A stretch of 50,301 nucleotides of DNA from Myxococcota bacterium (lineage in GTDB: Bacteria; Myxococcota_A; Polyangia; Polyangiales; Sandaracinaceae): assembly GCA_036149055.1 (NCBI GenBank), contig JAYZQJ010000116.1, positions 1 through 50,301 of the forward strand, written 5' to 3'. The notes beneath the pieces are model-generated. The model was not told where the DNA came from. It saw only the letters and a program-made list of their open reading frames with translations, and ran no database searches. Below, piece by piece: positions 3,178 to 50,301 of this stretch. Every line of letters starts with the position of its first letter. The first letter of the stretch is position 1. Both the position numbers and the translations under genes were made by a program.

Positions 3178-4008
3178 TCAGCCTTCGAGCAGGCCCTTGG
3201 CCTTCGCGACCTCGCGCACCGCGGGGAGGACCGCCTCGAGGGTGTCGGGGTTGTTGCAGGCGAGGATGCCCTTGCGGTTCTTCAGATCCTCGCCGCCGTA
3301 TTCGAAGGGCTTGCCGTCGAGATCGGTGAACTCGCCGCCGGCGGCGCGGAGGATGGCGTCGGGCGCGCAGGCGTCCCAGGCGCTCGAGTGCTCCGAGAGG
3401 TGCACGTAGAGATCGGCCTCGCGCTCGGTGATCAGGCCGACCTTCAGGCCGACCGAGCCGGAGCGCATCTCGTTCTCGATGCCGAGCTTCTCGACGAGGT
3501 CGCTCGTGGCCTTGCTGCGGTGCGAGCGCGAGACGACGAGGCGGAGATCCTTCGGCTTCGAGGTGTCGGTGACCTTGAGCGCGTAGGTGCGCGAGTCGCG
3601 CTCGAGGAAGGCGCTGTCGCCGACCACCCCGCGGTAGAGCTTGTCGCCGACCGGCTTGTAGACCACGCCGAGCTTGGCCTCCCCGTCGATCGCCAGGCCG
3701 ATCATCACCGAGAACTCGCCGTTCTTCGCGACGAACTCCTTGGTGCCGTCGAGCGGGTCCACGTACCAGACGCGGCCGCGGCGCAGGGCGTCGCTGTTGT
3801 CCTCGCTCTCCTCGGCGACGATGCCGTCGTGGGGGAAGGACTCCCGCAGACGGGCCACGAGCAGCTCGTTCGCCCGCTGGTCGGCCACGGTGACGGGGTC
3901 GCTGCCGTCCTTGTAGTCGACGTCGAAGTCGGTTCCGTACACCTCCATGAGGAGGGCGCCCGCCTCGCGAGCGAGCTTCACCGCCTCGACGAGCTCACGG
4001 TCCAGCAT
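3178..4008 (-). CDS. cysQ: 3'(2'),5'-bisphosphate nucleotidase CysQ / inositol monophosphatase family
   Basis: DPVTVAD, AEES, WYVDPLDGTKEF, VSRSH, GSVGLK and WDACA motifs. Confidence 0.9.
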   Translation of the reverse strand: MLDRELVEAVKLAREAGALLMEVYGTDFDVDYKDGSDPVTVADQRANELLVARLRESFPHDGIVAEESEDNSDALRRGRVWYVDPLDGTKEFVAKNGEFSVMIGLAIDGEAKLGVVYKPVGDKLYRGVVGDSAFLERDSRTYALKVTDTSKPKDLRLVVSRSHRSKATSDLVEKLGIENEMRSGSVGLKVGLITEREADLYVHLSEHSSAWDACAPDAILRAAGGEFTDLDGKPFEYGGEDLKNRKGILACNNPDTLEAVLPAVREVAKAKGLLEG

Positions 4009-22600: not shown

Positions 22601-23214
22601 GCATCGCCGATCCCATCGTGCTGACCTTCGACGACGATCCGCGCGAGCGCGGCAGCGGCCGGCCGCTTCGGGTGGAGCTGGTGGGGCGCACCGAGCTGCT
22701 CCGGCTCGGCGCGGCGCGCGCGTCGGTCACCCCGCTGCTGCGGCGCGTCCCGGGCCAGCGCGGGCAGGTCAACGAGCTGCGCTACGCGCTCCGCGCCTTC
22801 TTCGACCACGCCGCCCTCAGCGCGAGCGGCGCGCCTCCCGCGCGTCACGTGGCCGCGCAGCTCTACGGCGACCAGGACGGCGCCGGCCCGGTCGAGATCG
22901 GCTTCCGCGCGCTCGAGGCGACCGAGGCGCACGCATGGCTGAAGGGCCTGGTGCGCGAGATGCTCGGACGATCGCACGCCTACTTGATGCCCATCGAGGC
23001 GGTGCTGCGGCTCGCCGACCGCGTCGACGACGTGCGCGGCGAGGCGCTGGTCGAGTCGGTGGTCTACGTCGCCGAGCGCTGGAGCGGCGGACAGTCCCGC
23101 TACGGCCCGGTGCGCGACGCGCTGGCCCACGCGCCTCCTCCGCCCGGCGAGGCCGAGGACTTCCTCGAGCGCCGCTTCGCCTTCCCGCTCCGCAGCCGGG
23201 AGGGCGCGCGATGA
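19678..23214 (+). CDS. recC: Exodeoxyribonuclease V gamma subunit RecC
   Basis: 1178 aa. YSNRTEAL, IVVPN, NPCEEFW, PLLRLWGRPGRE, CPSVRREVE, PMRAIPFRAIFVLGL and DRYTFLETLLCARERLYLSY motifs. Confidence 0.93.
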   Translation: MMHLTYSNRTEALLDALVRRLDARRREGADPLEPTWIVVPNRNVERYVELGVATRLGVAANLRFERLAGFVQGWLGDSLLLGDAFLARVLRGLLDAPLLEDPAMAPVRRYLAGAGDAPDAIDLRRAQLALHVAHLFEEYGFSRPELLAAWTADEARFVGTAHEAAEGWQRALFRFARAHPASEGMRTLDEALSSAGPPPAPEVQVFGLSYVARIFSRLFAELSQRCDLQLYALNPCEEFWEDLETEGELRRRRKRTSGAEPDWLFEDEDPFQLSVDTETPLLRLWGRPGREHVRLLDALTECDFTPAFVDPLRARASQDDALPLFRGLHEPTLLEHLQHDVLSRAPRRERPARDLKDDSVQVFACPSVRREVETVAAEIWSLVERTPDLTFDRIAVLVNGPDRDLYLPHIAAVFEEAHRIPFNVTDLSLSSVSPLLEGALRLVDLPMSRFTRPDVLGVVTHPAVRARAPEIDAHHWVELVDRLGIFHGLDREAHAGTYVEGDDLLSWEQGVTRIALGAFMSGARSGDGRFVSVAGGRYLPEEPALGDRGDARLALLLRSLMSDVRFAREAELSLSEWSRFLGELLSAYLTPTDEREETALRRALSAVQALSGLDLDGAKVRYPVAHELAIGRLEELGGGRGQHLADGVVVSSLMPMRAIPFRAIFVLGLGEGRFPASDRRDSMDLRAARRQAGDVTPPERDRYTFLETLLCARERLYLSYVARDEHTGDALSPSTVVEELLDVIDAGYLEGARGRIVSKPALKRHEAEGLARVLPQAGAEHRARQLGHALQRSLSEDGRAEALGAAGVSEATRRVVRDPALSRLLGLASIPERRRSERGARTLRLSLSALRKFLECPLQGWTRAVLRLEEDELHAGEASADEPFAPSMLDATMTLRGAFVDAALGRASMRDAYAARIAEQQAHGRWPLGAIAHVEAARHFEVLDRWQAAWDALGPAEEIARLRFGAAQAAEASERIADPIVLTFDDDPRERGSGRPLRVELVGRTELLRLGAARASVTPLLRRVPGQRGQVNELRYALRAFFDHAALSASGAPPARHVAAQLYGDQDGAGPVEIGFRALEATEAHAWLKGLVREMLGRSHAYLMPIEAVLRLADRVDDVRGEALVESVVYVAERWSGGQSRYGPVRDALAHAPPPPGEAEDFLERRFAFPLRSREGAR

Positions 23215-25199
23215 CCCTCGGCTGGCGAGCGCACGGCGCGGCCCGGATCCGCGCGGGCTTCGGCCCCGATCCCCGGCTGCCGGGGGAGCTGCCCGAGCTC
23301 GTCCGGGAGCAGCTCGGCCGCTCGGAGATCGAGGAGGAGGACGCGCACCTCGCCTGGGAGCTCGCCCGGCTCGCGCCCCTCGACGACCCGGACGATCACC
23401 TCGCGCTCCTGTCGATCCTGCTCGTCGCGCTCGAGGCGCTCGGGCGGGGCTCGACCCGGGTCGCGCTCGCGAGCGTGGCGCCGCGGGCCCGCGCGCTGAT
23501 GGCCGCCGACCCCGCCCTGCTCGCCCAGGTCGAGGCGATGCTCGACGATCCGCCGGAGCTCTTCGGCCCGCCCGAGGCGCGCCGGCCGCTGGTGATCGAG
23601 GACGGCCACCTCTACCTGGAGCGGGTGCGCGCGGTGGAGGCCCGGCTCGCGGAGCGCATCGGCGCGCGCGGGCGCCTCACGCTGACGTCGCTCGACGGCG
23701 ACGCTGCCTTGAACCATCTGCGCGAGCGCCCGGCGCATGGCCCCCGCGGACCGATGCGGCTCACCGACGAGCAGGAGGAGGCGGTGGTCACCGCGCTCCG
23801 CGCGCCGCTGTCGGTCATCAGCGGCGGGCCGGGCACCGGGAAGACCTCGATCGTGGTCGCGATCCTCCGGGCCGCGCTCGCCCAGCTCGATCTCGACCCG
23901 AGCGCGATCGCCCTCGCCGCGCCCACCGGCAAGGCGGCCGATCGCATGCGCCGCGCGATCGAGGGCGGCCTGCGCGCGGTCGCCGAGCCGAGCCCCACCG
24001 ACGGCGCGCTCCTCGAGGCGCTGCCCGAGCCGCGCACCCTGCACCGCCTCCTCGGCTGGTCGCCCGCGCGCGGCGCCTTCCGCCACCACGTCGGCAACCC
24101 GCTGAGCGAGCGCCTGGTGGTGATCGACGAGTCGTCGATGATCGACGTCTTCCTGATGGAGCGCCTCGTCGAGTCGCTGCACCCCGAGGCGCGCCTCGTC
24201 CTCCTCGGCGATGCCGAGCAGCTGCCCAGCGTCGCGGCCGGCGCCGTCTTCCGCGACCTCGGCGCCGCGCCCGGCGTCGCCTCGGTGCATCTCCGCCAGA
24301 GCCACCGCATGGACCCGACCCAGCCCGCGGGCTTCAACGTGCTCGCGGTCGCGGGCGCGCTCAACGCCGGCCGGGTGCCGCCCACCGCGCCGCTCGCGGA
24401 CGACCTGCCCGCGCAGCCCGACGCGCTCGGCCGCCTCGACGCGCTCCCGCCCCGGCTCGAGGCGCTCGGCGGCGTCTTCCTCTTCGAGCCGACCGCGCCG
24501 ATCGACCGCGAGCGCTTCCTCGACCGCTGGTACGACGAGCGCGTGCGCGGCCCCGCCGAGATCCGCCGCCTCGCCTCCCGCACCTGGGCGCACGACGGCG
24601 GCCGGCTGCTCGACCCCGAGGGCCTCGAGGCGCTCTTCGGCTTCATGGAGCGCGCCCGCCTCCTCTGCGTGACCCGCTCCGCCGCCCGCCCGACCGGCGT
24701 CGACGCGATCAACGAGAGCCTGCACCGCCGCTTCACCGAGGACGCGCGCGCCTCGGTCGGCGCCTCGCTGCTCCTCGCCGGCGAGCCCATCCTCGTGCAC
24801 CGCAACGACTACGAGCGCGGCCTCTTCAACGGCGACCAGGGCCTCGTGCTCTTCGCCGCCGAAGAGGGCGAGCCCCCGCGCCCGGCCGCCGTCTTCCGCC
24901 GCGAGGACGGCTTCGTCGCCCACCCCATCGAGGCGGTCCGCGGCGCCATCGACCTCGGCTACGCCACCACCGTGCACAAGGCCCAGGGCAGCGAGCACGA
25001 CGCCGTCGCCCTCCTCCTCCCCGACACCGACAGCCCGCGCCTCCTCACCCGCGAGATCGTCTACACCGCCGTCACCCGCGCCCGCCGCTCCGTCCTCGTC
25101 GTCGGCACCAAGGAGCTCCTCGAGCGCGCCGCCGCCCGCCGCATCGAGCGCTCCTCCGGCATCGCCGAGCGCCTGACGGCCGCACCGACGGACCCGTAA
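23211..25199 (+). CDS. recD: Exodeoxyribonuclease V alpha subunit RecD
   Basis: 662 aa. GGPGTGKT, AAPTGKAA, TLHRLLG, IDESSM, GDAEQLPSV, FNGDQG, YATTVHKAQGSE and YTAVTRAR SF1 motifs. ATGA-coupled to recC. Confidence 0.95.
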   Translation: MTLGWRAHGAARIRAGFGPDPRLPGELPELVREQLGRSEIEEEDAHLAWELARLAPLDDPDDHLALLSILLVALEALGRGSTRVALASVAPRARALMAADPALLAQVEAMLDDPPELFGPPEARRPLVIEDGHLYLERVRAVEARLAERIGARGRLTLTSLDGDAALNHLRERPAHGPRGPMRLTDEQEEAVVTALRAPLSVISGGPGTGKTSIVVAILRAALAQLDLDPSAIALAAPTGKAADRMRRAIEGGLRAVAEPSPTDGALLEALPEPRTLHRLLGWSPARGAFRHHVGNPLSERLVVIDESSMIDVFLMERLVESLHPEARLVLLGDAEQLPSVAAGAVFRDLGAAPGVASVHLRQSHRMDPTQPAGFNVLAVAGALNAGRVPPTAPLADDLPAQPDALGRLDALPPRLEALGGVFLFEPTAPIDRERFLDRWYDERVRGPAEIRRLASRTWAHDGGRLLDPEGLEALFGFMERARLLCVTRSAARPTGVDAINESLHRRFTEDARASVGASLLLAGEPILVHRNDYERGLFNGDQGLVLFAAEEGEPPRPAAVFRREDGFVAHPIEAVRGAIDLGYATTVHKAQGSEHDAVALLLPDTDSPRLLTREIVYTAVTRARRSVLVVGTKELLERAAARRIERSSGIAERLTAAPTDP

Positions 25200-25220
25200 C
25201 TGTCCCGGGTGCGCCATCGC

Positions 25221-25249
25221 CGAAAGACGATATGACGACGAGCGTCCCC
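25221..25249 (+). repeat. Cassette-boundary repeat, inverted 29-bp copy
   Basis: cgaaagacgatatgacgacgagcgtcccc is the exact reverse complement of 25683-25711 and 26113-26141. Confidence 0.95.
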
Positions 25250-25266
25250 GTCCGGGCGCGCCCCCA

Positions 25267-25647
25267 CTACTTCGCCAGCGCCGCCACGGCCTCGACCCGC
25301 GCCTCCGCCGGGAAGACCACCCGGAGCTCGCGGCCGTCCGCCAGACGCCAGGTGTCGACGGCCTCCGCGAGGATCAGCAGATAGGTTCGACACTCCTCGG
25401 GTGGGAGCGGCGGCAGCTCGGCATGCACCAGCACCAGATTCCGTGTCTCGAGCCAGCTCGAGTCTCGAAGACAATCGGACAGGGCATCCCAGTTGAAGCC
25501 GAAGTAGCCCGGGAGCCGCAACTGCTTCGAGAGCGCCTGCAGCAACTCCGACTTGCTCGCGAGCTCCGTCGGGAGCCGAGCGACGTGGGCGTCCGTCGCT
25601 GCGACGACCTCCTCGTCCGTGAATTCGAACGGCAACTCTCGAGTCAT
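25267..25647 (-). CDS. Barstar family (ribonuclease inhibitor / immunity) protein
   Basis: LSKQLRLPGYFGFNWDALSDCLRD matches the barstar signature (P.Y.G.NWDAL.D.L). GGAG RBS before ATG 25647. Confidence 0.9.
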   Translation of the reverse strand: MTRELPFEFTDEEVVAATDAHVARLPTELASKSELLQALSKQLRLPGYFGFNWDALSDCLRDSSWLETRNLVLVHAELPPLPPEECRTYLLILAEAVDTWRLADGRELRVVFPAEARVEAVAALAK

Positions 25648-25675
25648 CCCGCGCTCCACGGCAACTCTCCGCCCC

Positions 25676-25711
25676 GACAACTGGGGACGCTCGTCGTCAT
25701 ATCGTCTTTCG
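25676..25711 (-). repeat. Cassette-boundary repeat, 36-bp copy A
   Basis: gacaactggggacgctcgtcgtcatatcgtctttcg, identical to 26106-26141. Confidence 0.97.
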
Positions 25712-25723
25712 TCCCCCTGGGAA

Positions 25724-26074
25724 TCAGAACGTCTGGTGTGGCTGCGAGCACTCCGGGGTGAATACCTCATCCATGTCGACTTCTCTGGGTGGATCGATTT
25801 CCTCGAGACGGGAGTGGACCTCCGCACCGTCGAGAGACTCGGCCCGGATCATGTCGAGGGAGAGCAACTCCTCGAGTCGCCACCGCACGAGCTGCCCCGC
25901 CCCGTTCCTGTACTCCTCTTCCTGTGCACGCCCCACTTCGAGGGCCCTCTCGAAGGCGTCGTCGAAGTCAGTTGCTCGAAAGATGTGAACGGAGTCATTC
26001 GCCATCACGCATCCCTCCCCTTCCACCAAGCAGACCCGCCGCACGGTGGAACTGAACCAAGACCCCTCGGTCAT
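25724..26074 (-). CDS. DUF4288-like small protein
   Basis: 116 aa. The pattern W(F)..., IFRATDFDDAFERALEVG...YRNGAGQLVRWRL is typical of DUF4288. GGAG RBS. Confidence 0.75.
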   Translation of the reverse strand: MTEGSWFSSTVRRVCLVEGEGCVMANDSVHIFRATDFDDAFERALEVGRAQEEEYRNGAGQLVRWRLEELLSLDMIRAESLDGAEVHSRLEEIDPPREVDMDEVFTPECSQPHQTF

Positions 26075-26105
26075 CTGACGATCTCCCATCGGTAAAAAGC
26101 TTGCG

Positions 26106-26141
26106 GACAACTGGGGACGCTCGTCGTCATATCGTCTTTCG
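26106..26141 (-). repeat. Cassette-boundary repeat, 36-bp copy B
   Basis: Identical to 25676-25711; period 430 bp. Confidence 0.97.
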
Positions 26142-26151
26142 CCCTCGACGC

Positions 26152-26493
26152 TCAAGAGCCTTCCAGGAGCTCGAGCGAGGCGGCGATTCCCTTCAGCGGC
26201 TGGAAGTCCGTCTTCCACATGTCGAGCTCGAAGGGCTCCCCCGAACGATTCGCGTAGAGCGTCGCGATGACGGGGACTCCATCGGCGTCCTCGAACCGAG
26301 CCGCGGCCAGGACGCGCCCGAGCTGCCGGTCTCGGAGGGGAGGATCGGTGGGGTACAGGCGAAGCGATCCCATGCCGCCGTCGTCCATGTCCTCGACCCG
26401 GAGGCTCCGGACCCAACGCGCCGGCAGGGGCGAGCCGTCGGCCAGGAAGCTCAACAAGCGGAGCTCGTCCGCCGTCGGCTCACGCAGGGGCAC
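26152..26493 (-). CDS. DUF6984-like small protein (putative immunity-type)
   Basis: MDDGGMGSL...DADGVPVIATL...GEPFELDMWKTDFQPL motif recognised from memory. GTG start inferred. Confidence 0.7.
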   Translation of the reverse strand: MPLREPTADELRLLSFLADGSPLPARWVRSLRVEDMDDGGMGSLRLYPTDPPLRDRQLGRVLAAARFEDADGVPVIATLYANRSGEPFELDMWKTDFQPLKGIAASLELLEGS

Positions 26494-26498
26494 TTCGA

Positions 26499-26636
26499 CT
26501 ACGCGATCCAGTCGCCCGTGAGGCCGCCCGCCGTCGCGTAGATCTCGCCCGCGAGCAGCTCGTGCTTCAGGTTCGCCGTGCGCTCGAGCACGAGGTACTC
26601 GTGGTAGGTGAAGCGGCGTCGGGCGGGGACGTTCAT
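26499..26636 (-). pseudogene. Truncated Uma2-family (PD-(D/E)XK) endonuclease, N-terminal ~38 aa only
   Basis: RRFTYHEYLVLERTANLKHELLAGEIYATAGG matches the Uma2 N-terminus; the frame then stops after 7 unrelated codons. Confidence 0.8.
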
Positions 26637-26686
26637 CGCGACCCGAGCGTACCGTGGTCGCCCTCGCCCTGCTCTCCGGGTCTCGC

Positions 26687-27583
26687 TCACATCGGCGGGT
26701 CGGGCGGGCCGGCGTCGAAGCCGGCGCCCGGGCCGGCGTCGGGGACGCTGGCGTCCACGGGCTCGGGGCGGCCGGCGCAGACGCGGCCCTCACAGGTGAG
26801 GTCGTCCGCGCAGATGCCCTGGCCGTCGCCGCAGGCCTCGCCGACGGAGAGCCGGTTGACGGAGCCGTCGACGATGGCGCGGCGGACCCGCGTCTGCCCG
26901 GCTCGGGCGGAGATGGAGATGATAGCCGGCTCGTGGGCGAGCATGTCGCAGCTCGCGCGGGTGAGCGGGTCGAAGCAGCAGACGTCGACGCGGTTGCCGG
27001 TCACGGGAAGCGAGAACTCGTAGATCGTGTGCGGCCGAGTCTGATTGGGGCTCGGACCGAAGCCGTATGCGCCCTCGGCGCCGACGGAGGCGGGCTCCCC
27101 GTTGCGCTCCACCTCGACGTGCCCGTCGCCGTAGACGCGCAGGTCGAACCAGGTCTCGCCGACGCGGATCTGGAAGTAGTTGAAGCAGTCGGGCCGGATG
27201 CCCTCGACGTTCGCGCGCCAGTCGTTGAGGAAGTAGAGCCGCCCCTCGTGGTAGTCGACGTAGACGTCGGTGAAGAGCCCCTCGAGGCGCTCGGCGTCCC
27301 TCCACTCGTCGCCGGTGAACTGGCCGTCGACCACGTGCTGGTCGCTCGAGGTCTGCTCGCGCCAGCGCCCCTCGGCGTCCTGGACACGGCAGCTCCCGCG
27401 GTCGCAGTCGGGACCGCTGCACGGGCAGACCTGCTCCGAGGTCTCGACACACTCGCGCGTCTCTTCGTCGCAGACCACGCGCGTCTGCGTGACGGGACGG
27501 CTGCCGTCAGGGCATTCCAGCTCGTTGCACGAGGAGCCGAGCGCGAGCAACGCGAGCGAGCACATGAGAGTTCGGGGGGTCAT
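26687..27583 (-). CDS. Cys-rich lipoprotein
   Basis: Signal peptide with LGSSC lipobox; VDGQFTGDEW motif; C-terminal DAS/DAG repeats. Confidence 0.75.
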   Translation of the reverse strand: MTPRTLMCSLALLALGSSCNELECPDGSRPVTQTRVVCDEETRECVETSEQVCPCSGPDCDRGSCRVQDAEGRWREQTSSDQHVVDGQFTGDEWRDAERLEGLFTDVYVDYHEGRLYFLNDWRANVEGIRPDCFNYFQIRVGETWFDLRVYGDGHVEVERNGEPASVGAEGAYGFGPSPNQTRPHTIYEFSLPVTGNRVDVCCFDPLTRASCDMLAHEPAIISISARAGQTRVRRAIVDGSVNRLSVGEACGDGQGICADDLTCEGRVCAGRPEPVDASVPDAGPGAGFDAGPPDPPM

Positions 27584-27605
27584 CGCGTCATTCTCCAGGT
27601 TCGGG

Positions 27606-28841
27606 TCAAGGCAGCTCCGCGGCGCCGAGGAGGCGGACCCCACGGCTGCGGCTGCTGAACGCGGCGTCGAGCTCGCCGTCACCGTCGAAGTCGCCGAGGG
27701 CCACGGACTCGCCGAGCCGGTCGCCGCCGACCGTGAGGGGGCTGCCGCTCCAGTCGCGGCGGCTCGTGAGATCGGGCGTGGACAGCACGCGCAGGGCGCC
27801 CCGGCAGGCGTCGCCTTCGCACGCGTCGCCCGGGCAGCCGAGCAACACCACGGACGCTCGCTCGCGGGCGCCCAGCACGCAGCCGGGCGAGCCGGTGTCG
27901 AGGCTGGCGACCTCGGTCACCTCCGAAGCCGCGAGCCGATAGGCGACCAGGCGATCGGAGGCGCCCGTCTCGCGCCAGAGGACCACGACGCCACCGCTCG
28001 CGTGGGCGACCAGGCTCGCGGGCTCGGGCCCCGGGATGCGCGCGCTGGGCGCTCGGCCGTCCGGAGGCAGGGCCACCGGGCCCGGGTAGACGGCGACCCC
28101 GCCGGGCTCGGCGATCGCGAGGTCGTCGCGGCCGTCGCCGTCCACGTCGCCGAGCCCGAAGACCGCGCCGAGATCGCTGGGGGCGTCGAGCCGCGCGTCG
28201 ACGAGGGGCGCGGCGCCGGGATGGATCCAGGCGCGCCCGTCGCAGGCTTCGATCCAGAGCTCGTCCGCGCCGTCCCCGTCGAGGTCGCCGAGGGCCCGCA
28301 CGCTCGCGCCGTGAGGGGTCAGAGACGGCAGCGCCTCGAGCCGGTCCGGCAGGGCGCGCGAGGGGGCGCCGGCGAGGAGGTGGACGGCGCCCTCGCCCTC
28401 CACCGAGAGGGCGACCGCGAGGTCGAGCACTCCGTCCCCGTCGAAGTCTCCCGCCGCGAGCCCGCCGCGGACGTCGACCGGCGCGCTCGCTCCGTCGCGA
28501 ACGACGCGCGACTCGAAAGACTCGCCGAGCAGGGCGTGATCGAGCTCGTCCTCGACGCTCGGCGGCACGTCGACGCCGCCGTAGAGCAGGCGGAGGCGCG
28601 GGGCGAGCCGGGGCCGGGCGCGCTCGGCGAGCAGCTCGAGGACCGCGAGGTCGTCGCGGCCGTCCCCGTCGAGGTCGGCGAGCGCGATGCCGAGCACCGC
28701 GGAGGAGGTCGTGCCGACGCCGGCGTCCGGAGCGGGCTGCGCGTCGGCCTGCGCGTCGATCGCCGCGTCGCTCCCGCTCGTCGCGACGTGCGAGTCGTAG
28801 GTGCAGCCGAGCGCGAGCAGCGCGAAGAGCGCCCGGGTCAT
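27606..28841 (-). CDS. FG-GAP/VCBS repeat lipoprotein
   Basis: Lipobox ALGC; five D(L/F/V)DGDG..D(L/E) Ca-binding repeats. Confidence 0.85.
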   Translation of the reverse strand: MTRALFALLALGCTYDSHVATSGSDAAIDAQADAQPAPDAGVGTTSSAVLGIALADLDGDGRDDLAVLELLAERARPRLAPRLRLLYGGVDVPPSVEDELDHALLGESFESRVVRDGASAPVDVRGGLAAGDFDGDGVLDLAVALSVEGEGAVHLLAGAPSRALPDRLEALPSLTPHGASVRALGDLDGDGADELWIEACDGRAWIHPGAAPLVDARLDAPSDLGAVFGLGDVDGDGRDDLAIAEPGGVAVYPGPVALPPDGRAPSARIPGPEPASLVAHASGGVVVLWRETGASDRLVAYRLAASEVTEVASLDTGSPGCVLGARERASVVLLGCPGDACEGDACRGALRVLSTPDLTSRRDWSGSPLTVGGDRLGESVALGDFDGDGELDAAFSSRSRGVRLLGAAELP

Positions 28842-29497
28842 GGCGCCTCCTCGAGCGCCGCGCGGGCGCGCTCGGCGAGCCGCTCCCGCTCCACCTCGAG
28901 CTGCCCCTCCGCGAAGCGGCGGCGGTGCTCGGCGGCGAGCCGGAGCGTCGCTCGGGGGTCGTCCGCGAGCGACCGGCGCATGCGCTGCACGAGGGCGAGC
29001 TCCGCGGCGAAGTCGTTCTGCGCGGGGGCCTCCTCGGGTCGCGGGGGCGCGGCCGGAGCCTCCTCGGGCGCCTCCACCTCGACGGGCGCCTCGATGGGCG
29101 CCTGGACGGGCGCCTCGACGGCCGCTTCGACCTGCGGCTCGACGTCGGGCGCGACGGGCGCTGCGGGCGCGGGCGGCTCGGGCGCCAGCTCGCGCGGGGT
29201 CGGCGCGCGCTCCGGCTCGGGCGCGGGCGGGTCGCCGAGCAGCCAGATCGCGCCGACGGCCACGAGCGCGACCCCGAGGGCGATCCAGAGCTTGCCCGCC
29301 CAAAGCGCGAGGCCGCTCTGGCCGGCGACGCCCGTCGCAGCGGTCGCGTCGGTGGGCCAGACGTCGGGCCCGGCGCCGATCTCGGCCGCGATGCCGCGGG
29401 AGATCCGGGCGAGCGCCTCGGGGTCGTCGTCGAGCGTCGCGCTGCGCAGGACCTCGTGCAGCTCCGGGTCGTCGACCAGGCGTCGAGGGTCGCTCAT
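28838..29497 (-). CDS. Putative anti-sigma factor (TM, Pro-rich linker, short C-terminal helical domain)
   Basis: Coupled to the ECF sigma gene. ELALVQRMRRSL..DP..TLRLAAEHRRRFAEGQLEVERE is a typical myxobacterial anti-sigma C-terminus. Confidence 0.7.
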   Translation of the reverse strand: MSDPRRLVDDPELHEVLRSATLDDDPEALARISRGIAAEIGAGPDVWPTDATAATGVAGQSGLALWAGKLWIALGVALVAVGAIWLLGDPPAPEPERAPTPRELAPEPPAPAAPVAPDVEPQVEAAVEAPVQAPIEAPVEVEAPEEAPAAPPRPEEAPAQNDFAAELALVQRMRRSLADDPRATLRLAAEHRRRFAEGQLEVERERLAERARAALEEAP

Positions 29498-30042
29498 GTC
29501 GTCCTCCGGGACGGCGCGGCGACGGCCAGCTCCTGCCGAGCGAGCGCCTTGCGCACGATCTCCCGCGCCGCGTGGAGGCGCGTGTACGCGGTCTGGACCG
29601 GGATCTCGAGCAGCTTCGCCACCTCCGGCATCGACAGCTCCTCGAGCTCGTAGAGCACCAGCACCTCGCGCTTGTCGTCGTCGAGCCGAGAGAGCGCGTC
29701 ATCGAGCCGACGGCGCGCCTCGCTGCGCCGCACCGCGCGCTCCTGCGCCGGCGGGACGGCGACCTCGATCTCCTCGCTCCGGCGGGCGCGCCGCTGACGC
29801 TTGCGGTGGTCGGCGAGCACGCGGCGCAGGATGCCGAAGAGCACGGCCCGGACCGGGGCGTCGCGCTCGAGCAGCTCCGGTCGCCGATGCAGCACGACGA
29901 AGACCTGCTGGGTGAGGTCTTCGGCGTCGCTCGGCGTGGCCCCGAGCCTGCGGATCGTCCTGAGCACGAACGCACCTTCCTCCCGGAACACCCGGGCGAG
30001 CGAGCGCGCCTCAGCGGGAGACGTGGGGACGCGTTCGCTCAT
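29494..30042 (-). CDS. ECF RNA polymerase sigma-70 factor
   Basis: DAEDLTQQVFVVLHRR (region 2) and REVLVLYELEELSMPEVAKLLEIPVQTAYTRLHAAR (region 4). Confidence 0.93.
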   Translation of the reverse strand: MSERVPTSPAEARSLARVFREEGAFVLRTIRRLGATPSDAEDLTQQVFVVLHRRPELLERDAPVRAVLFGILRRVLADHRKRQRRARRSEEIEVAVPPAQERAVRRSEARRRLDDALSRLDDDKREVLVLYELEELSMPEVAKLLEIPVQTAYTRLHAAREIVRKALARQELAVAAPSRRTT

Positions 30043-30073
30043 CGTGAGAAGCCATGGACGCTCGGGACCGGGG

Positions 30074-31048
30074 TTATGGAAAAAAGTGGAGGCCGACCCA
30101 CGCGACGACGCCACCGAAGACGGGAGCGAAGTCGAGCGCGACCGCGCGGGGGTCGGTCTGGGTGGAGACGACGAGGGTCGGCGTCCAGAGCGGGACGCCG
30201 AGCAGCGCGTCGAGGCGGAAGGAGAGCGCGTCGAAGGACAGCTCGGCGCGCGCCCGGAGATCGGCGGCCAGCCAGGGATCGGTGCGCGCGAGCGACTCGA
30301 CGTCGAAGCCGGACGCCCGCGTGTCGAGCGCGCCGAGGGCGAGCCCCGCGCAGCCGCCGAGCCAGAGCTCCCGCGCGACCTCTCCGCCCGGGCACCCGCT
30401 GAGCCGCGCCGCGTACCAGAAGAGCGCGAGCGAGCCCTCGCGCACCGCGACGTCCCGAGGCAGCGCGGCGACGAGGCCCAGCTCGATGGAGACGGGAGCG
30501 GCGCCCCGCCAGGCCACCGACAGCTCCGCCGCGAAGCCGCTGGCGGGGCTCCGCTCGCCGAGCCAGGCGCCGACGTGGACGGAGACGCGCTGCGGGTCGT
30601 CGGGAGACGGCTCCTCGGGCGGCGCCGGGCTCGGCGGCTGCGCCTCCGGCTCGGGCTCCGGCGCTGGCTCGGGCGCTGGCTCGGCCGGCGGCGCGGGCTG
30701 CGCGGCGACCGCCTCCTCCCACTCCGCGATCGCCACGCCCACGATGAGCGCGACCGCCTCGGGCAGCCGCCCCGCCTCCTCGGCCGGCAGGGCGATCTGG
30801 CGCGAAGCCACCGCGCGCGCCGAGGCGACGGTGACCTCGACCGCGACCGACGCCCCGCAACGCACCCGCACCCGCACCGCCACGTCCCGGCCGCCCAGCT
30901 CCGTCATCGCGGCGGCCCGCAGCGCCTCCGCCTCCACGCACTCCCCCGCCAGCTCGAGCGCCACCGGCCCGACCTGCTGCGCGCGCGCCGCCCCCGCGAC
31001 CCAGACCACCGCAAGGCACGCGAGGACCCCCGAGCTCACACACCGCAT
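30074..31048 (-). CDS. Secreted/outer-membrane protein with C-terminal beta-barrel-like domain
   Basis: Signal peptide, Pro-rich linker, alternating-strand C-terminus ending VGLHFFP; first gene of the ECF cluster. Confidence 0.6.
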   Translation of the reverse strand: MRCVSSGVLACLAVVWVAGAARAQQVGPVALELAGECVEAEALRAAAMTELGGRDVAVRVRVRCGASVAVEVTVASARAVASRQIALPAEEAGRLPEAVALIVGVAIAEWEEAVAAQPAPPAEPAPEPAPEPEPEAQPPSPAPPEEPSPDDPQRVSVHVGAWLGERSPASGFAAELSVAWRGAAPVSIELGLVAALPRDVAVREGSLALFWYAARLSGCPGGEVARELWLGGCAGLALGALDTRASGFDVESLARTDPWLAADLRARAELSFDALSFRLDALLGVPLWTPTLVVSTQTDPRAVALDFAPVFGGVVAWVGLHFFP

Positions 31049-48515: not shown

Positions 48516-48652
48516 CAGCGCTGCGATCTCTGCCGAATCGAGATCCGGGCCTTCGATTCGGCAGAGCCTCGAACCGCGTCGCGCTCTCGAGCCGCACGCG
48601 ATGAATCGGCAGAGAACCGCGCATGCGCCGAGGGCTCCGCGTCCGGGCGGGC

Positions 48653-48848
48653 ATGCGCGGGAAGGGAGGCGGCGCAACGCACGCTTCCGCTGCTCACACG
48701 GCGACGCGCGGAAGAGCGCCGGTCGCAGCCCAGGGGGAGAAGCCGGGCTTGCAGCACCCGGGAGCGCCTTCGCGGCCCGGCGCCCCGTGCGGGTCACGCC
48801 GAAGGTCATGCGCGGCATCTGGAGCCTGCGCGGCTCTCGGCGCGCTAG
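48653..48848 (+). pseudogene. Degenerate 5' fragment of the HUH transposase, copy 1
   Basis: Aligns with 49831 to about 50023 (ends gaaggtcatgcgcggcatctggagcctgcgcggc) with multiple indels. Confidence 0.8.
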
Positions 48849-49172
48849 CAGCGAGAGCAGCGGCCGGCCCCGGCGTCCGGGAGCTCCCCGCCGGATCTCT
48901 GCCGAATCGAGAGCAGCGGCCGCCCCGGCGAGGAGGAGCTCGCGCCGGATCTCTGCCAAATCGAGATCCGGTGCCGCGAAGTCGATTCAGCAGAGCTTCG
49001 AACGCCGCCGCGTCGCGCTCCGGAGCCGGTTCACCGTACTCGAGGCCGCACACATGAATCGGCAGAGCTCCCACGGCGTTCTCCGCCGAATCGAGTCCGC
49101 ACCCGGTGAATCGGCAGAGAATCCCGGCGATACGCATCACAGTCGCGACGAGGGCTCTGCGTCCGTACGGGC

Positions 49173-49379
49173 ATGCGCAAGAGAAGGAAGGCGGAGCAAG
49201 TTGCGCTCCCGCCGTTCAGACATGGCGGCGCGCGGAAGGCGCCGACCGCAAGCCCAAGGGGAAGAAGGCGGGCGTGCCGCACAGCACCCGGAGCGCTTCG
49301 CGGCGCGGCACCCCGTGCGGGTCACGTCGAAGGTCACGCGAGGCATCTGGAGCCTGCGCGGCCGGCGCCTCTCGACGCG
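49173..49379 (+). pseudogene. Degenerate 5' fragment of the HUH transposase, copy 2
   Basis: MRKRRKAEQVALPPFRHGGARK then frameshifts; DNA aligns with 49831-50039. Confidence 0.85.
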
Positions 49380-49830
49380 CGGAGCGGCGCCGCGACAGTG
49401 TCGAGCGAGGCCTGCCCCAGCCTGTGCTGGCCCGCTGCCACCGCCCACACCGCAAGCTCCTGAACTGTTCATCGGGCTGCACGAGATCTCTGCCGAATCG
49501 AGAGCAGCGCCCACCCCCACGACGGGGAGCTCGCCGCCGGATCTCCGCCGAATCGAGGGCAGCGGCCGCCCCGGCGACGGGGAGCTCGCGCCGGATCTCT
49601 GCCGAATCGAGATCCGGTGCCGCGAAGTCGATTCAGCAGAGCTTCGAACGCCGCCGCGTCGCGCTCTCGAGCCGGTTCGTCGCGCTCGAGGCCGCTCACA
49701 TGAATCGGCAGAGCTCCCACGGCGTTCTCCGCCGAATCGAGCCCGCACCGATGAATCGGCAGAGAAGGACCGCGCATCTTTCATTGCAAACTTGCGTCAG
49801 TCGCACCGAGGGCTCTGCGTCCGTACGGGC

Positions 49831-50301
49831 ATGCGCAGGAAGAAGAGGGCGGAGCAAGGTACGCTCCTGCTGTTCAGACACGGCGGCGCGCGGAAGGGCG
49901 CCGGTCGCAAGCCCAAGGGAGACGAGGCGGGGGTCCCCCACACCCCCCGCGAGCGCTTCGCGGCGCGGCACCCGGTGCTGGTCACGCTGAAGGTCATGCG
50001 CGGCATCTGGAGCCTGCGCGGCCGGCGCCTCTCGACGCGGCTCTGGGAGATCATCGCGAAGGCGAACGCCCGGGGCGGGGTGCGTATCGTGCACTTCTCC
50101 ATCCAGCGGAACCACCTCCACCTCCTGGTCGAGGCGGAGGACGCGGAGCTCCTCGCGCGCGGCATGCAGGGGCTGAGCGTGCGCATCGCGCGCATGGTCA
50201 ACCGCACCATGGGTCGCAAGGGCACCGTCTTCGCCGACCGCTACCACAGCCGCGCGCTCACCACGCCCCGGGCCGTCCGCAACGCGATCGCCTACGTGCT
50301 C
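49831..50301 (+). mobile_element. REP-associated tyrosine (Y1 HUH, IS200/RAYT-like) transposase, truncated by the window end
   Basis: Own translation: MRRKKRAEQG...HGGARKGAGRKPK...HPVLVTLK...VHFSIQRNHLHLLVE (HUH)...GTVFADRYHSRAL...RNAIAYVL (catalytic Tyr). Absent from the ORF track because there is no stop in the window. Confidence 0.92.

What the first reader, a model, noticed from the sequence alone, without database searches (positions are those of the whole stretch)
25200..26640. Repeat-delimited array of small immunity-type gene cassettes (candidate non-integron cassette capture system)
Seen: three co-oriented minus-strand genes of 113-126 aa (DUF6984-like, DUF4288-like, barstar) are separated by an exact 36-bp repeat (26106-26141 = 25676-25711). 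On the coding strand each copy starts 10-12 nt after a stop and ends about 30 nt before the next ATG. A third, inverted 29-bp copy (25221-25249) closes the array against the recD stop. Hand counts give about 60-63% GC in the cassettes versus about 73% in recD. Known: barstar-like proteins act as immunity proteins in polymorphic toxin systems, and integrons stack cassettes with attC sites. This repeat, however, lacks attC RYYYAAC/GTTRRRY architecture, and no integrase is nearby. Inference: a site-directed capture system stockpiles orphan immunity genes, with the recombinase acting in trans. A REP-type HUH transposase such as the one at 49831 is one candidate, since the GGGGACG/CGTCCCC end resembles REP-like ends.
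Basis: partly seen in the sequence, partly recalled or inferred. Interest (0 to 1): 0.85.

Follow-up and report, generated by a model that had tools for sequence, protein, structure and literature searches.

The report
Transposase repeats framing swappable gene cassettes
The short repeat between these small protective-type genes is the end signal of a little-studied DNA-cutting enzyme family; it is scattered through the genome but often sits where close strains gain, lose or swap genes, which hints at an integron-like way of collecting genes that has not yet been demonstrated.

Summary
The repeat and three genes are real. The repeat is not locus-specific: about 60 copies lie on some 22 contigs. 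It is the terminal inverted repeat of a TIRYT-type HUH transposase: in the sister species an intact gene of this type is bracketed by 85-nt doublets of it, and 17 of 20 homologous loci show such arms. The HUH gene at 49831 has a different repeat; no cognate enzyme was found in this assembly. Unlike ordinary REPs, these arms favour codon-atypical neighbours, are locally duplicated, and the window locus is polymorphic: other strains carry an extra Imm8 gene at arm 3. In one sister-species strain a 1,033-nt segment that is arm-free in the reference lies between two doublets. Against a dedicated immunity system: cargo is mixed, many arms have none, breakpoint enrichment is weak (9 of 16, p about 0.02, biased sample), and a related family in another genus behaves as a plain intergenic repeat. 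Verdict: new variant of a known kind; enzyme-driven capture is plausible, unproven.

The parts
23211..25199 (+). recD-like helicase gene, conserved left anchor; not part of the array
   Evidence: ortholog 81% identical in G001 with no repeat and other genes downstream
25221..25249 (-). Arm 1 of the family-A terminal repeat, G-run end facing barstar
25267..25647 (-). Barstar-family gene, 126 aa, no toxin partner in the array
   Evidence: E 2.8e-19; in run X18 a contig joins 25668 to other DNA and 25309-25611 has no cover
25676..25714 (+). Arm 2 (core 25683-25711) with a 7-nt outer flank shared only with arm 3
   Evidence: this flank occurs in 2 of 61 copies
25724..26074 (-). DUF4288 gene, 116 aa; an arm-free paralog at G000:C160:3599-3989 is 86% identical and its homology runs almost exactly from arm to arm
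26106..26144 (+). Arm 3 (core 26113-26141)
26145..26164 (.). Polymorphic junction: these 20 nt are replaced by about 830 nt carrying a 255-aa Imm8-domain gene in other strains
   Evidence: L094 (Imm8 E 3.6e-30); run X8 joint with 837 letters between; run X11 pieces 6 and 7 fit the same form
26152..26493 (-). DUF6984 gene, 113 aa; last codons differ between the two alleles
26499..26636 (-). 5' fragment (45 aa) of a gene whose relatives are 192-194 aa; homology stops at about 26523. Marks the repeat-free end of the array. The label Uma2-type is recalled; Pfam found nothing for the fragment

Best explanation
The repeat is the 27-29-nt terminal arm of a TIRYT (subclass 2.1 Y1/HUH transposase) element, dispersed as a non-autonomous family of single arms, tandem arms and inverted doublets (shown by co-location and fold; binding not shown). 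In this genus the family marks junctions of accessory DNA. Inferred mechanism, by analogy with TnpA-REP: the enzyme binds an arm on single-stranded DNA, nicks at a loosely defined site some tens of bases away and joins the end to another strand, so a copy of the arm unit (arm plus 7-20 nt of flank) is laid down together with a neighbouring or incoming DNA piece whose far end is arbitrary. Repeating this gives gene-arm-gene-arm arrays; host recombination between the near-identical units then drops or exchanges modules. The window holds one small such array that happens to contain orphan immunity-type genes, which are small, self-contained and presumably retained by selection. In this genome the cognate enzyme was not found, so present-day changes here are more likely recombination or import from kin, or cross-activity of the 62% identical paralog on C209.
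For: Enzyme link: 297-aa gene L024:9402-10295 with doublets on both sides; invariant H60-x-H62 and Y120 in 16 homologs; model's best hit TnpA-REP 4ER8, E 1e-6; 17 of 20 homolog loci have inward arms, A-like ones in G017 and G024 and on one side of a fragment in G008. Accessory bias: 39% of 62 neighbours codon-atypical against 14% of 3,285 controls, p 5e-9; by contig 0.45 against 0.20, p 0.009, and against 0.28 on the same contigs, p 0.025; in G001 13 of 48 arm-adjacent genes have a G000 ortholog against 87 of 154 others, p 5e-4. Local duplication: doublet spacers 0.85 identical within 5 kb (56 pairs), 0.48 between contigs (940 pairs); all three window arms have the variant found in 12 of 61 copies. 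Arrays: G001 C130 has 7 doublets about 1 kb apart with Imm5, DUF1963 and unknown genes between; C124 has Imm11, AbiE, HIT. Capture-like case: L144 holds a 1,033-nt segment 99.2% identical to arm-free G001 DNA, ending about 20 nt from a doublet on each side. Junctions with one end at an arm and the other inside a gene: L153 and X18. TnpA-REP cuts up to >400 nt from a BIME and was proposed to sequester genes or gene fragments (PMC3333891).
Against: No family-A-flanked transposase in G000 or in the metagenome loci of the conspecific strain; G000 is 96% complete and 12 of 61 copies lie within 400 nt of contig ends, so absence is not proven. Breakpoint enrichment is weak: 5 of 10 (p 0.06) and 4 of 6 (p 0.16), pooled p 0.02, on loci fetched because they bear arms; 7 of 16 events have no end within 30 nt of an arm. 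Cargo-free doublets sit between conserved genes (L028, L031). Families B and D show no accessory bias, C a weaker one (11 of 22 gaps, p 0.025). The A-like family of G008 lies among housekeeping genes without arrays in the 8 regions viewed. Gene orientation relative to arms is mixed, and around barstar the arms point outward, not inward as around a transposase. No biochemistry for subclass 2.1 was found in the searches.
Confidence: 0.5

Rival explanations
1. Passive colonisation. Genes arrive by ordinary horizontal transfer; the arm or doublet hops locally into the roomy, weakly selected gaps of islands; host recombination between copies then deletes or swaps the DNA between them. The enzyme moves only the repeat.
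For: Dispersed, tandem and cargo-free copies; same gap held by family A in G001 and family B in G000 (L028); cognate enzyme not found in G000; doublet-to-doublet loss of three genes in L091; A-like arms in G008 without arrays.
Against: Classical REPs avoid atypical regions (PMC3390384) and family B and three control repeats do so here; the L144 segment moved into a position between two doublets with both ends about 20 nt from them, which hopping of the repeat alone does not explain; DUF4288 homology ends at the arms.
Confidence: 0.38
2. One reading: a dedicated site-specific system that stockpiles orphan immunity genes, driven in trans by the HUH gene at 49831.
For: Three immunity-type or small genes here and a fourth (Imm8) in other strains; Imm5, Imm11, Imm33-like, DUF1963 and SMI1/KNR4 genes next to arms elsewhere.
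Against: The 49831 gene has its own repeat, found beside 6 of 9 Y1 loci; of 30 genes picked from arm-rich regions of G000 and kin strains only 1 had an immunity-type Pfam hit, others were methyltransferases, MerR, RCC1-like or unknown.
Confidence: 0.05
3. Integron or CALIN with unusual attC sites, or an assembly artefact.
For: Co-oriented small lower-GC genes; the doublet folds into a long imperfect hairpin (-31.8 kcal/mol).
Against: No IntI over the cut-off (best 88 against 265 bits); no attC-like box pair in 25150-26720; independent contigs carry the same arrangement.
Confidence: 0.02

Closest known systems
TIRYT / TIRtron and TIR repeat families (Di Nocera 2013, PMC3733652; subclass 2.1 of Quentin 2018, 10.1101/279083)
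   Same: Y1 HUH transposase with C-terminal extension, flanked by inward-pointing non-palindromic arms that start with a G run; arms form moderately abundant families as singles, dimers and clusters.
   Different: Arm head is GGGGACGC, 7 of 8 positions of GGGGWSAS. The passages read describe no link to accessory genes, cassette-like arrays or strain polymorphism.
RAYT / TnpA-REP with REP, BIME and REPIN (Ton-Hoang 2012, PMC3333891; Loper 2012, PMC3390384)
   Same: Same fold; single-copy enzyme with many non-autonomous doublets of fixed spacing; capture of flanking genes or fragments was already proposed.
   Different: The single arm is not a hairpin and has no GTAG tag; REPs mark old core regions and avoid atypical DNA, whereas family A is enriched beside it.
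rAID orphan-immunity arrays of Bacteroidales (10.1101/2025.05.03.651265)
   Same: Co-oriented short orphan-immunity genes with conserved intergenic motifs.
   Different: rAID has a linked tyrosine recombinase; none lies on this contig; the repeat is dispersed and cargo is not limited to immunity genes.
Integrons / CALIN
   Same: Gene-site-gene-site arrays that differ between strains; site can fold as single-stranded hairpin (doublets).
   Different: No IntI, no attC boxes, mixed orientation, imprecise and sometimes intragenic far ends.

Membership tests
TIRYT TIR family | Arms flank a Y1 transposase with HUH motif and catalytic Tyr | tested here: met
   In G001, not in G000; NCBIfam NF047646 E 4e-8 but below its cut-off; no Pfam hit
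TIRYT TIR family | Terminal inverted repeats rather than REP hairpins | tested here: met
   17 of 20 homolog loci; single arm folds no better than shuffles, z -0.4 and -0.1
TIRYT TIR family | C-terminal helix-turn-helix (DnaA_C-like) | tested here: inconclusive
   Profile hits DnaA C-terminus at E 0.044; model has confident C-terminal helices
TIRYT TIR family | GGGGWSAS head (described for some, not all, TIRs) | tested here: inconclusive
   7 of 8 positions, read from the sequence; consensus
TIRYT TIR family | Dispersed singles, dimers and clusters | tested here: met
   94 of 101 arms in the fetched G001 regions are in doublets
TIRYT TIR family | Enzyme binds and cleaves at the arm | not testable with these tools
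   needs biochemistry
REP / REPIN (GTAG type) | Palindromic unit with GTAG tag | tested here: not met
   and the sequence itself
Integron | IntI integrase in the genome | tested here: not met
   TIGR02249 best 87.7 bits against cut-off 265; genome 96% complete
Integron | attC with paired R boxes | tested here: not met
   own scan of 25150-26720 found none; IntegronFinder itself was not available
rAID | Tyrosine recombinase upstream of the array | tested here: not met
   4 PF00589 matches, none on this contig
rAID | Co-oriented short lower-GC genes with conserved intergenic motif | tested here: met
   (this locus only)

The most novel reading that the evidence does not exclude
A TIRYT lineage has been domesticated into an integron analogue: an HUH enzyme that inserts foreign or neighbouring DNA at its repeat, duplicating the repeat each time, and so builds strain-variable arrays of immunity, defence and surface genes without any tyrosine recombinase.
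Probability: 0.27. Interest if true: 0.87.

Novelty: new variant of a known kind. Interest (0 to 1): 0.6.

Why it matters
What single-copy REP/TIR-associated transposases do for their hosts is an open question, and TIRYT enzymes seem hardly studied (the term TIRtron occurs in 1 paper of the library). Here one TIR family tracks accessory genes instead of avoiding them, forms arrays with locally copied repeats, and shows gain and loss between strains. The intact enzyme and its DNA site are identified, so the gene-sequestering model proposed for TnpA-REP can be tested directly. If true it is a second enzymatic route to cassette arrays and a possible single-strand insertion tool; if false it is still a clear case of a repeat family creating recombination joints in variable DNA.

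Tried and rejected
HUH at 49831 as the enzyme: rejected. IS200-like tnpA of G001 C74 as the enzyme: no family-A arm nearby. attC or IntI: not found. MITE with target duplication: no duplicated flanks seen by eye in the G001 doublets. DUF4288 relatives in genome contigs: none confirmed. Run X5 holds the stretch only in short pieces and was not used. Lack of barstar cover in X18 is not proof of absence; only the contig join at 25668 is used. L091's doublet-to-doublet loss could be assembly collapse across a 105-nt repeat. Events that cross G000 contig breaks (C36, C134, C267, C250 left end) looked arm-bounded but were left out of the count; within the count, L106 is tandem-repeat variation, L148's near end is an arm duplication (the gene's own breakpoint is about 55 nt away) and L153's two ends are one junction. 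The insert part failed on an index and was redone (no Imm8 homolog in G000). PMC8266576 gave nothing on subclass 2.1. Earlier findings: nothing relevant. The taxonomic label Myxococcota was not tested.

Full report
Observation. The 36-nt direct repeat, the inverted 29-nt copy and the three minus-strand genes are as described. GC of the genes is 0.62-0.69 against 0.77 for recD, less extreme than stated. The upstream end of the array has no repeat: DUF6984 abuts a 45-aa fragment of a gene that is 192-194 aa long in relatives, homology stopping at about 26523 (the name Uma2 is recalled). Independent contigs carry the same order, so it is not an assembly error.

The repeat is dispersed. The 29-nt core has 9 exact and 60 near copies (up to 4 mismatches) in the 9.9-Mb genome, as singles, tandem runs and a few head-to-head pairs, next to genes as ordinary as an apparent tyrosyl-tRNA synthetase (label by eye). 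It was found in 4 of 41 genomes searched, abundantly only here and in the same-genus genome G001 (76 matches). In the G001 regions fetched, 94 of 101 arms form 85-nt inverted doublets, and 45 of 46 doublets have a 33-nt spacer. The single arm does not fold better than shuffles.

What it is. The HUH gene at 49831 belongs to a multi-copy group with another repeat. A second group of HUH genes, missed by the Pfam look in G000, turned up through G001. Two lie in G000, each between inward-pointing arms of its own G-run-headed family, B and C; a census shows four such families in the genome. The family-A member is in G001: a 297-aa gene with doublets of our repeat on both sides, absent from the orthologous site of G000. 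It has invariant H-x-H and Tyr120, a confident model (pLDDT 88) whose best structural match is TnpA-REP, and a weak DnaA-like C-terminus. Of 20 homologous loci in relatives, 17 have an inward pair of arms. This fits TIRYT as described in PMC3733652 (passages) and subclass 2.1 in 10.1101/279083 (passages and section 19). I put the identification at about 0.9.

Does it mark gene traffic? Using my own gene caller and codon score, 39% of the 62 neighbours of family A are in the lowest decile against 14% of 3,285 control genes; B, C, D give 13, 17, 18% and three unrelated repeats 4-8%; gene length is not significantly different. Counting by contig with a lower calling threshold, A stays enriched (16 of 29 gaps; p 0.009, and p 0.025 against the same contigs), C moderately (11 of 22), B and D not (14 of 61; 5 of 15). 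In G001, arm-adjacent genes lack G000 orthologs more often (13 of 48 have one, against 87 of 154). Classical REPs show the opposite (PMC3390384, passages). G001 has arrays of 7 and more than 10 doublets with mostly one or two accessory genes per interval, among them Imm5, DUF1963, Imm11, AbiE and HIT genes, in mixed orientation; neighbouring doublets share spacer and flanks. Elsewhere the cargo is varied: 1 of 30 hand-picked genes from arm-rich regions had an immunity-type domain.

Strain variation. At the window locus, L094 and run X8 replace 26145-26164 by about 830 nt encoding an Imm8-domain protein, and X11 fits the same form; one end lies at arm 3, the other in the last codons of DUF6984. 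In X18 a contig joins 25668 to a diverged piece of a DUF6984 3' end instead of barstar (4 of 24 listed runs were laid). G001 and four other relatives have different genes after recD and no arms in the stretches viewed. An arm-free DUF4288 paralog on C160 aligns from the arm's end to 6 nt past the stop, though such homology could also simply fade at gene ends. In L144, a 1,033-nt segment that lies without arms about 4 kb away in G001 sits between two doublets, each end about 20 nt from one, where G001 has a single doublet; the junctions are in unique sequence, so repeat collapse does not explain them, but direction is unknown. A formal count on 40 and 26 of the 78 metagenome loci gave 5 of 10 and 4 of 6 events with an end within 30 nt of an arm, expected 4.7 of 16, pooled p 0.02; the sample is biased towards arms and several events are debatable (see Tried and rejected).

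Mechanism. Shown: arm-enzyme co-location, local copying of arm units, accessory bias, polymorphism with junctions at arms. Inferred: single-strand nicking near an arm and joining to other DNA, as TnpA-REP does in vitro; PMC3333891 (passages and section 25) already proposes that this could sequester genes or gene fragments. Against: no cognate enzyme in G000 or in the conspecific loci, cargo-free doublets between conserved genes, and an A-like family in G008 that lies among housekeeping genes in the 8 regions viewed; G024 has one cluster with small genes among 7 regions. I give enzyme-linked acquisition 0.5 and passive colonisation plus host recombination 0.38.

Novelty. Repeat class and enzyme class are known. 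Searches listed no paper describing TIR-delimited accessory arrays; the library lacks most subscription journals, most hits were seen only as listings, and I did not open the supplements or figures of PMC3733652 (Fig. 9, additional files) or PMC3333891 (Fig. S7), which may hold comparable cases. rAID features are from passages of 10.1101/2025.05.03.651265; PMC5581495 (passages) added little. Verdict: new variant of a known kind, interest 0.6; the integron-analogue reading has probability about 0.27.

Noticed in passing
window 48527-50301: HUH gene (49831 to contig end) preceded by two truncated copies of its own 5' part (48739-48840, 49291-49380) and several copies of a separate repeat (45 exact 16-mers genome-wide); matches on 9 contigs at 79-98% identity.
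   Followed up: partly
G000:C63:7855-9094 and G000:C209:58002-59335: Two further TIRYT elements with their own arm families; the C209 element is followed by a small gene closed by one more arm. Family B (126 copies) prefers gaps between convergent genes, 36 of 61.
   Followed up: partly
G000:C160:1-4050: Low-GC stretch of small genes at a contig start, with the arm-free DUF4288 paralog; looks like an orphan-immunity tail (by eye).
   Followed up: partly
G000:C4:116067, C25:206; G001 L029, L030, L033-L036: Multi-copy four-helix-bundle genes (PF05635) with hexamer tandem tracts often lie next to arms in both species.
   Followed up: no
L144:1165-1199 and 3760-3800: About 40 nt of the 3' end of a LysR-like gene is duplicated at the far side of the doublet array, also in G001.
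   Followed up: no
G000:C36:2240-2276 and C134 start: Remnants of collapsed doublets where a conspecific strain has whole ones, with different genes between units.
   Followed up: partly
window 26687-31009: Lipoprotein-like gene, repeat protein, anti-sigma-like and ECF-sigma-like genes lie between the array and a desaturase-like gene that directly follows recD in G003 (labels by eye).
   Followed up: no
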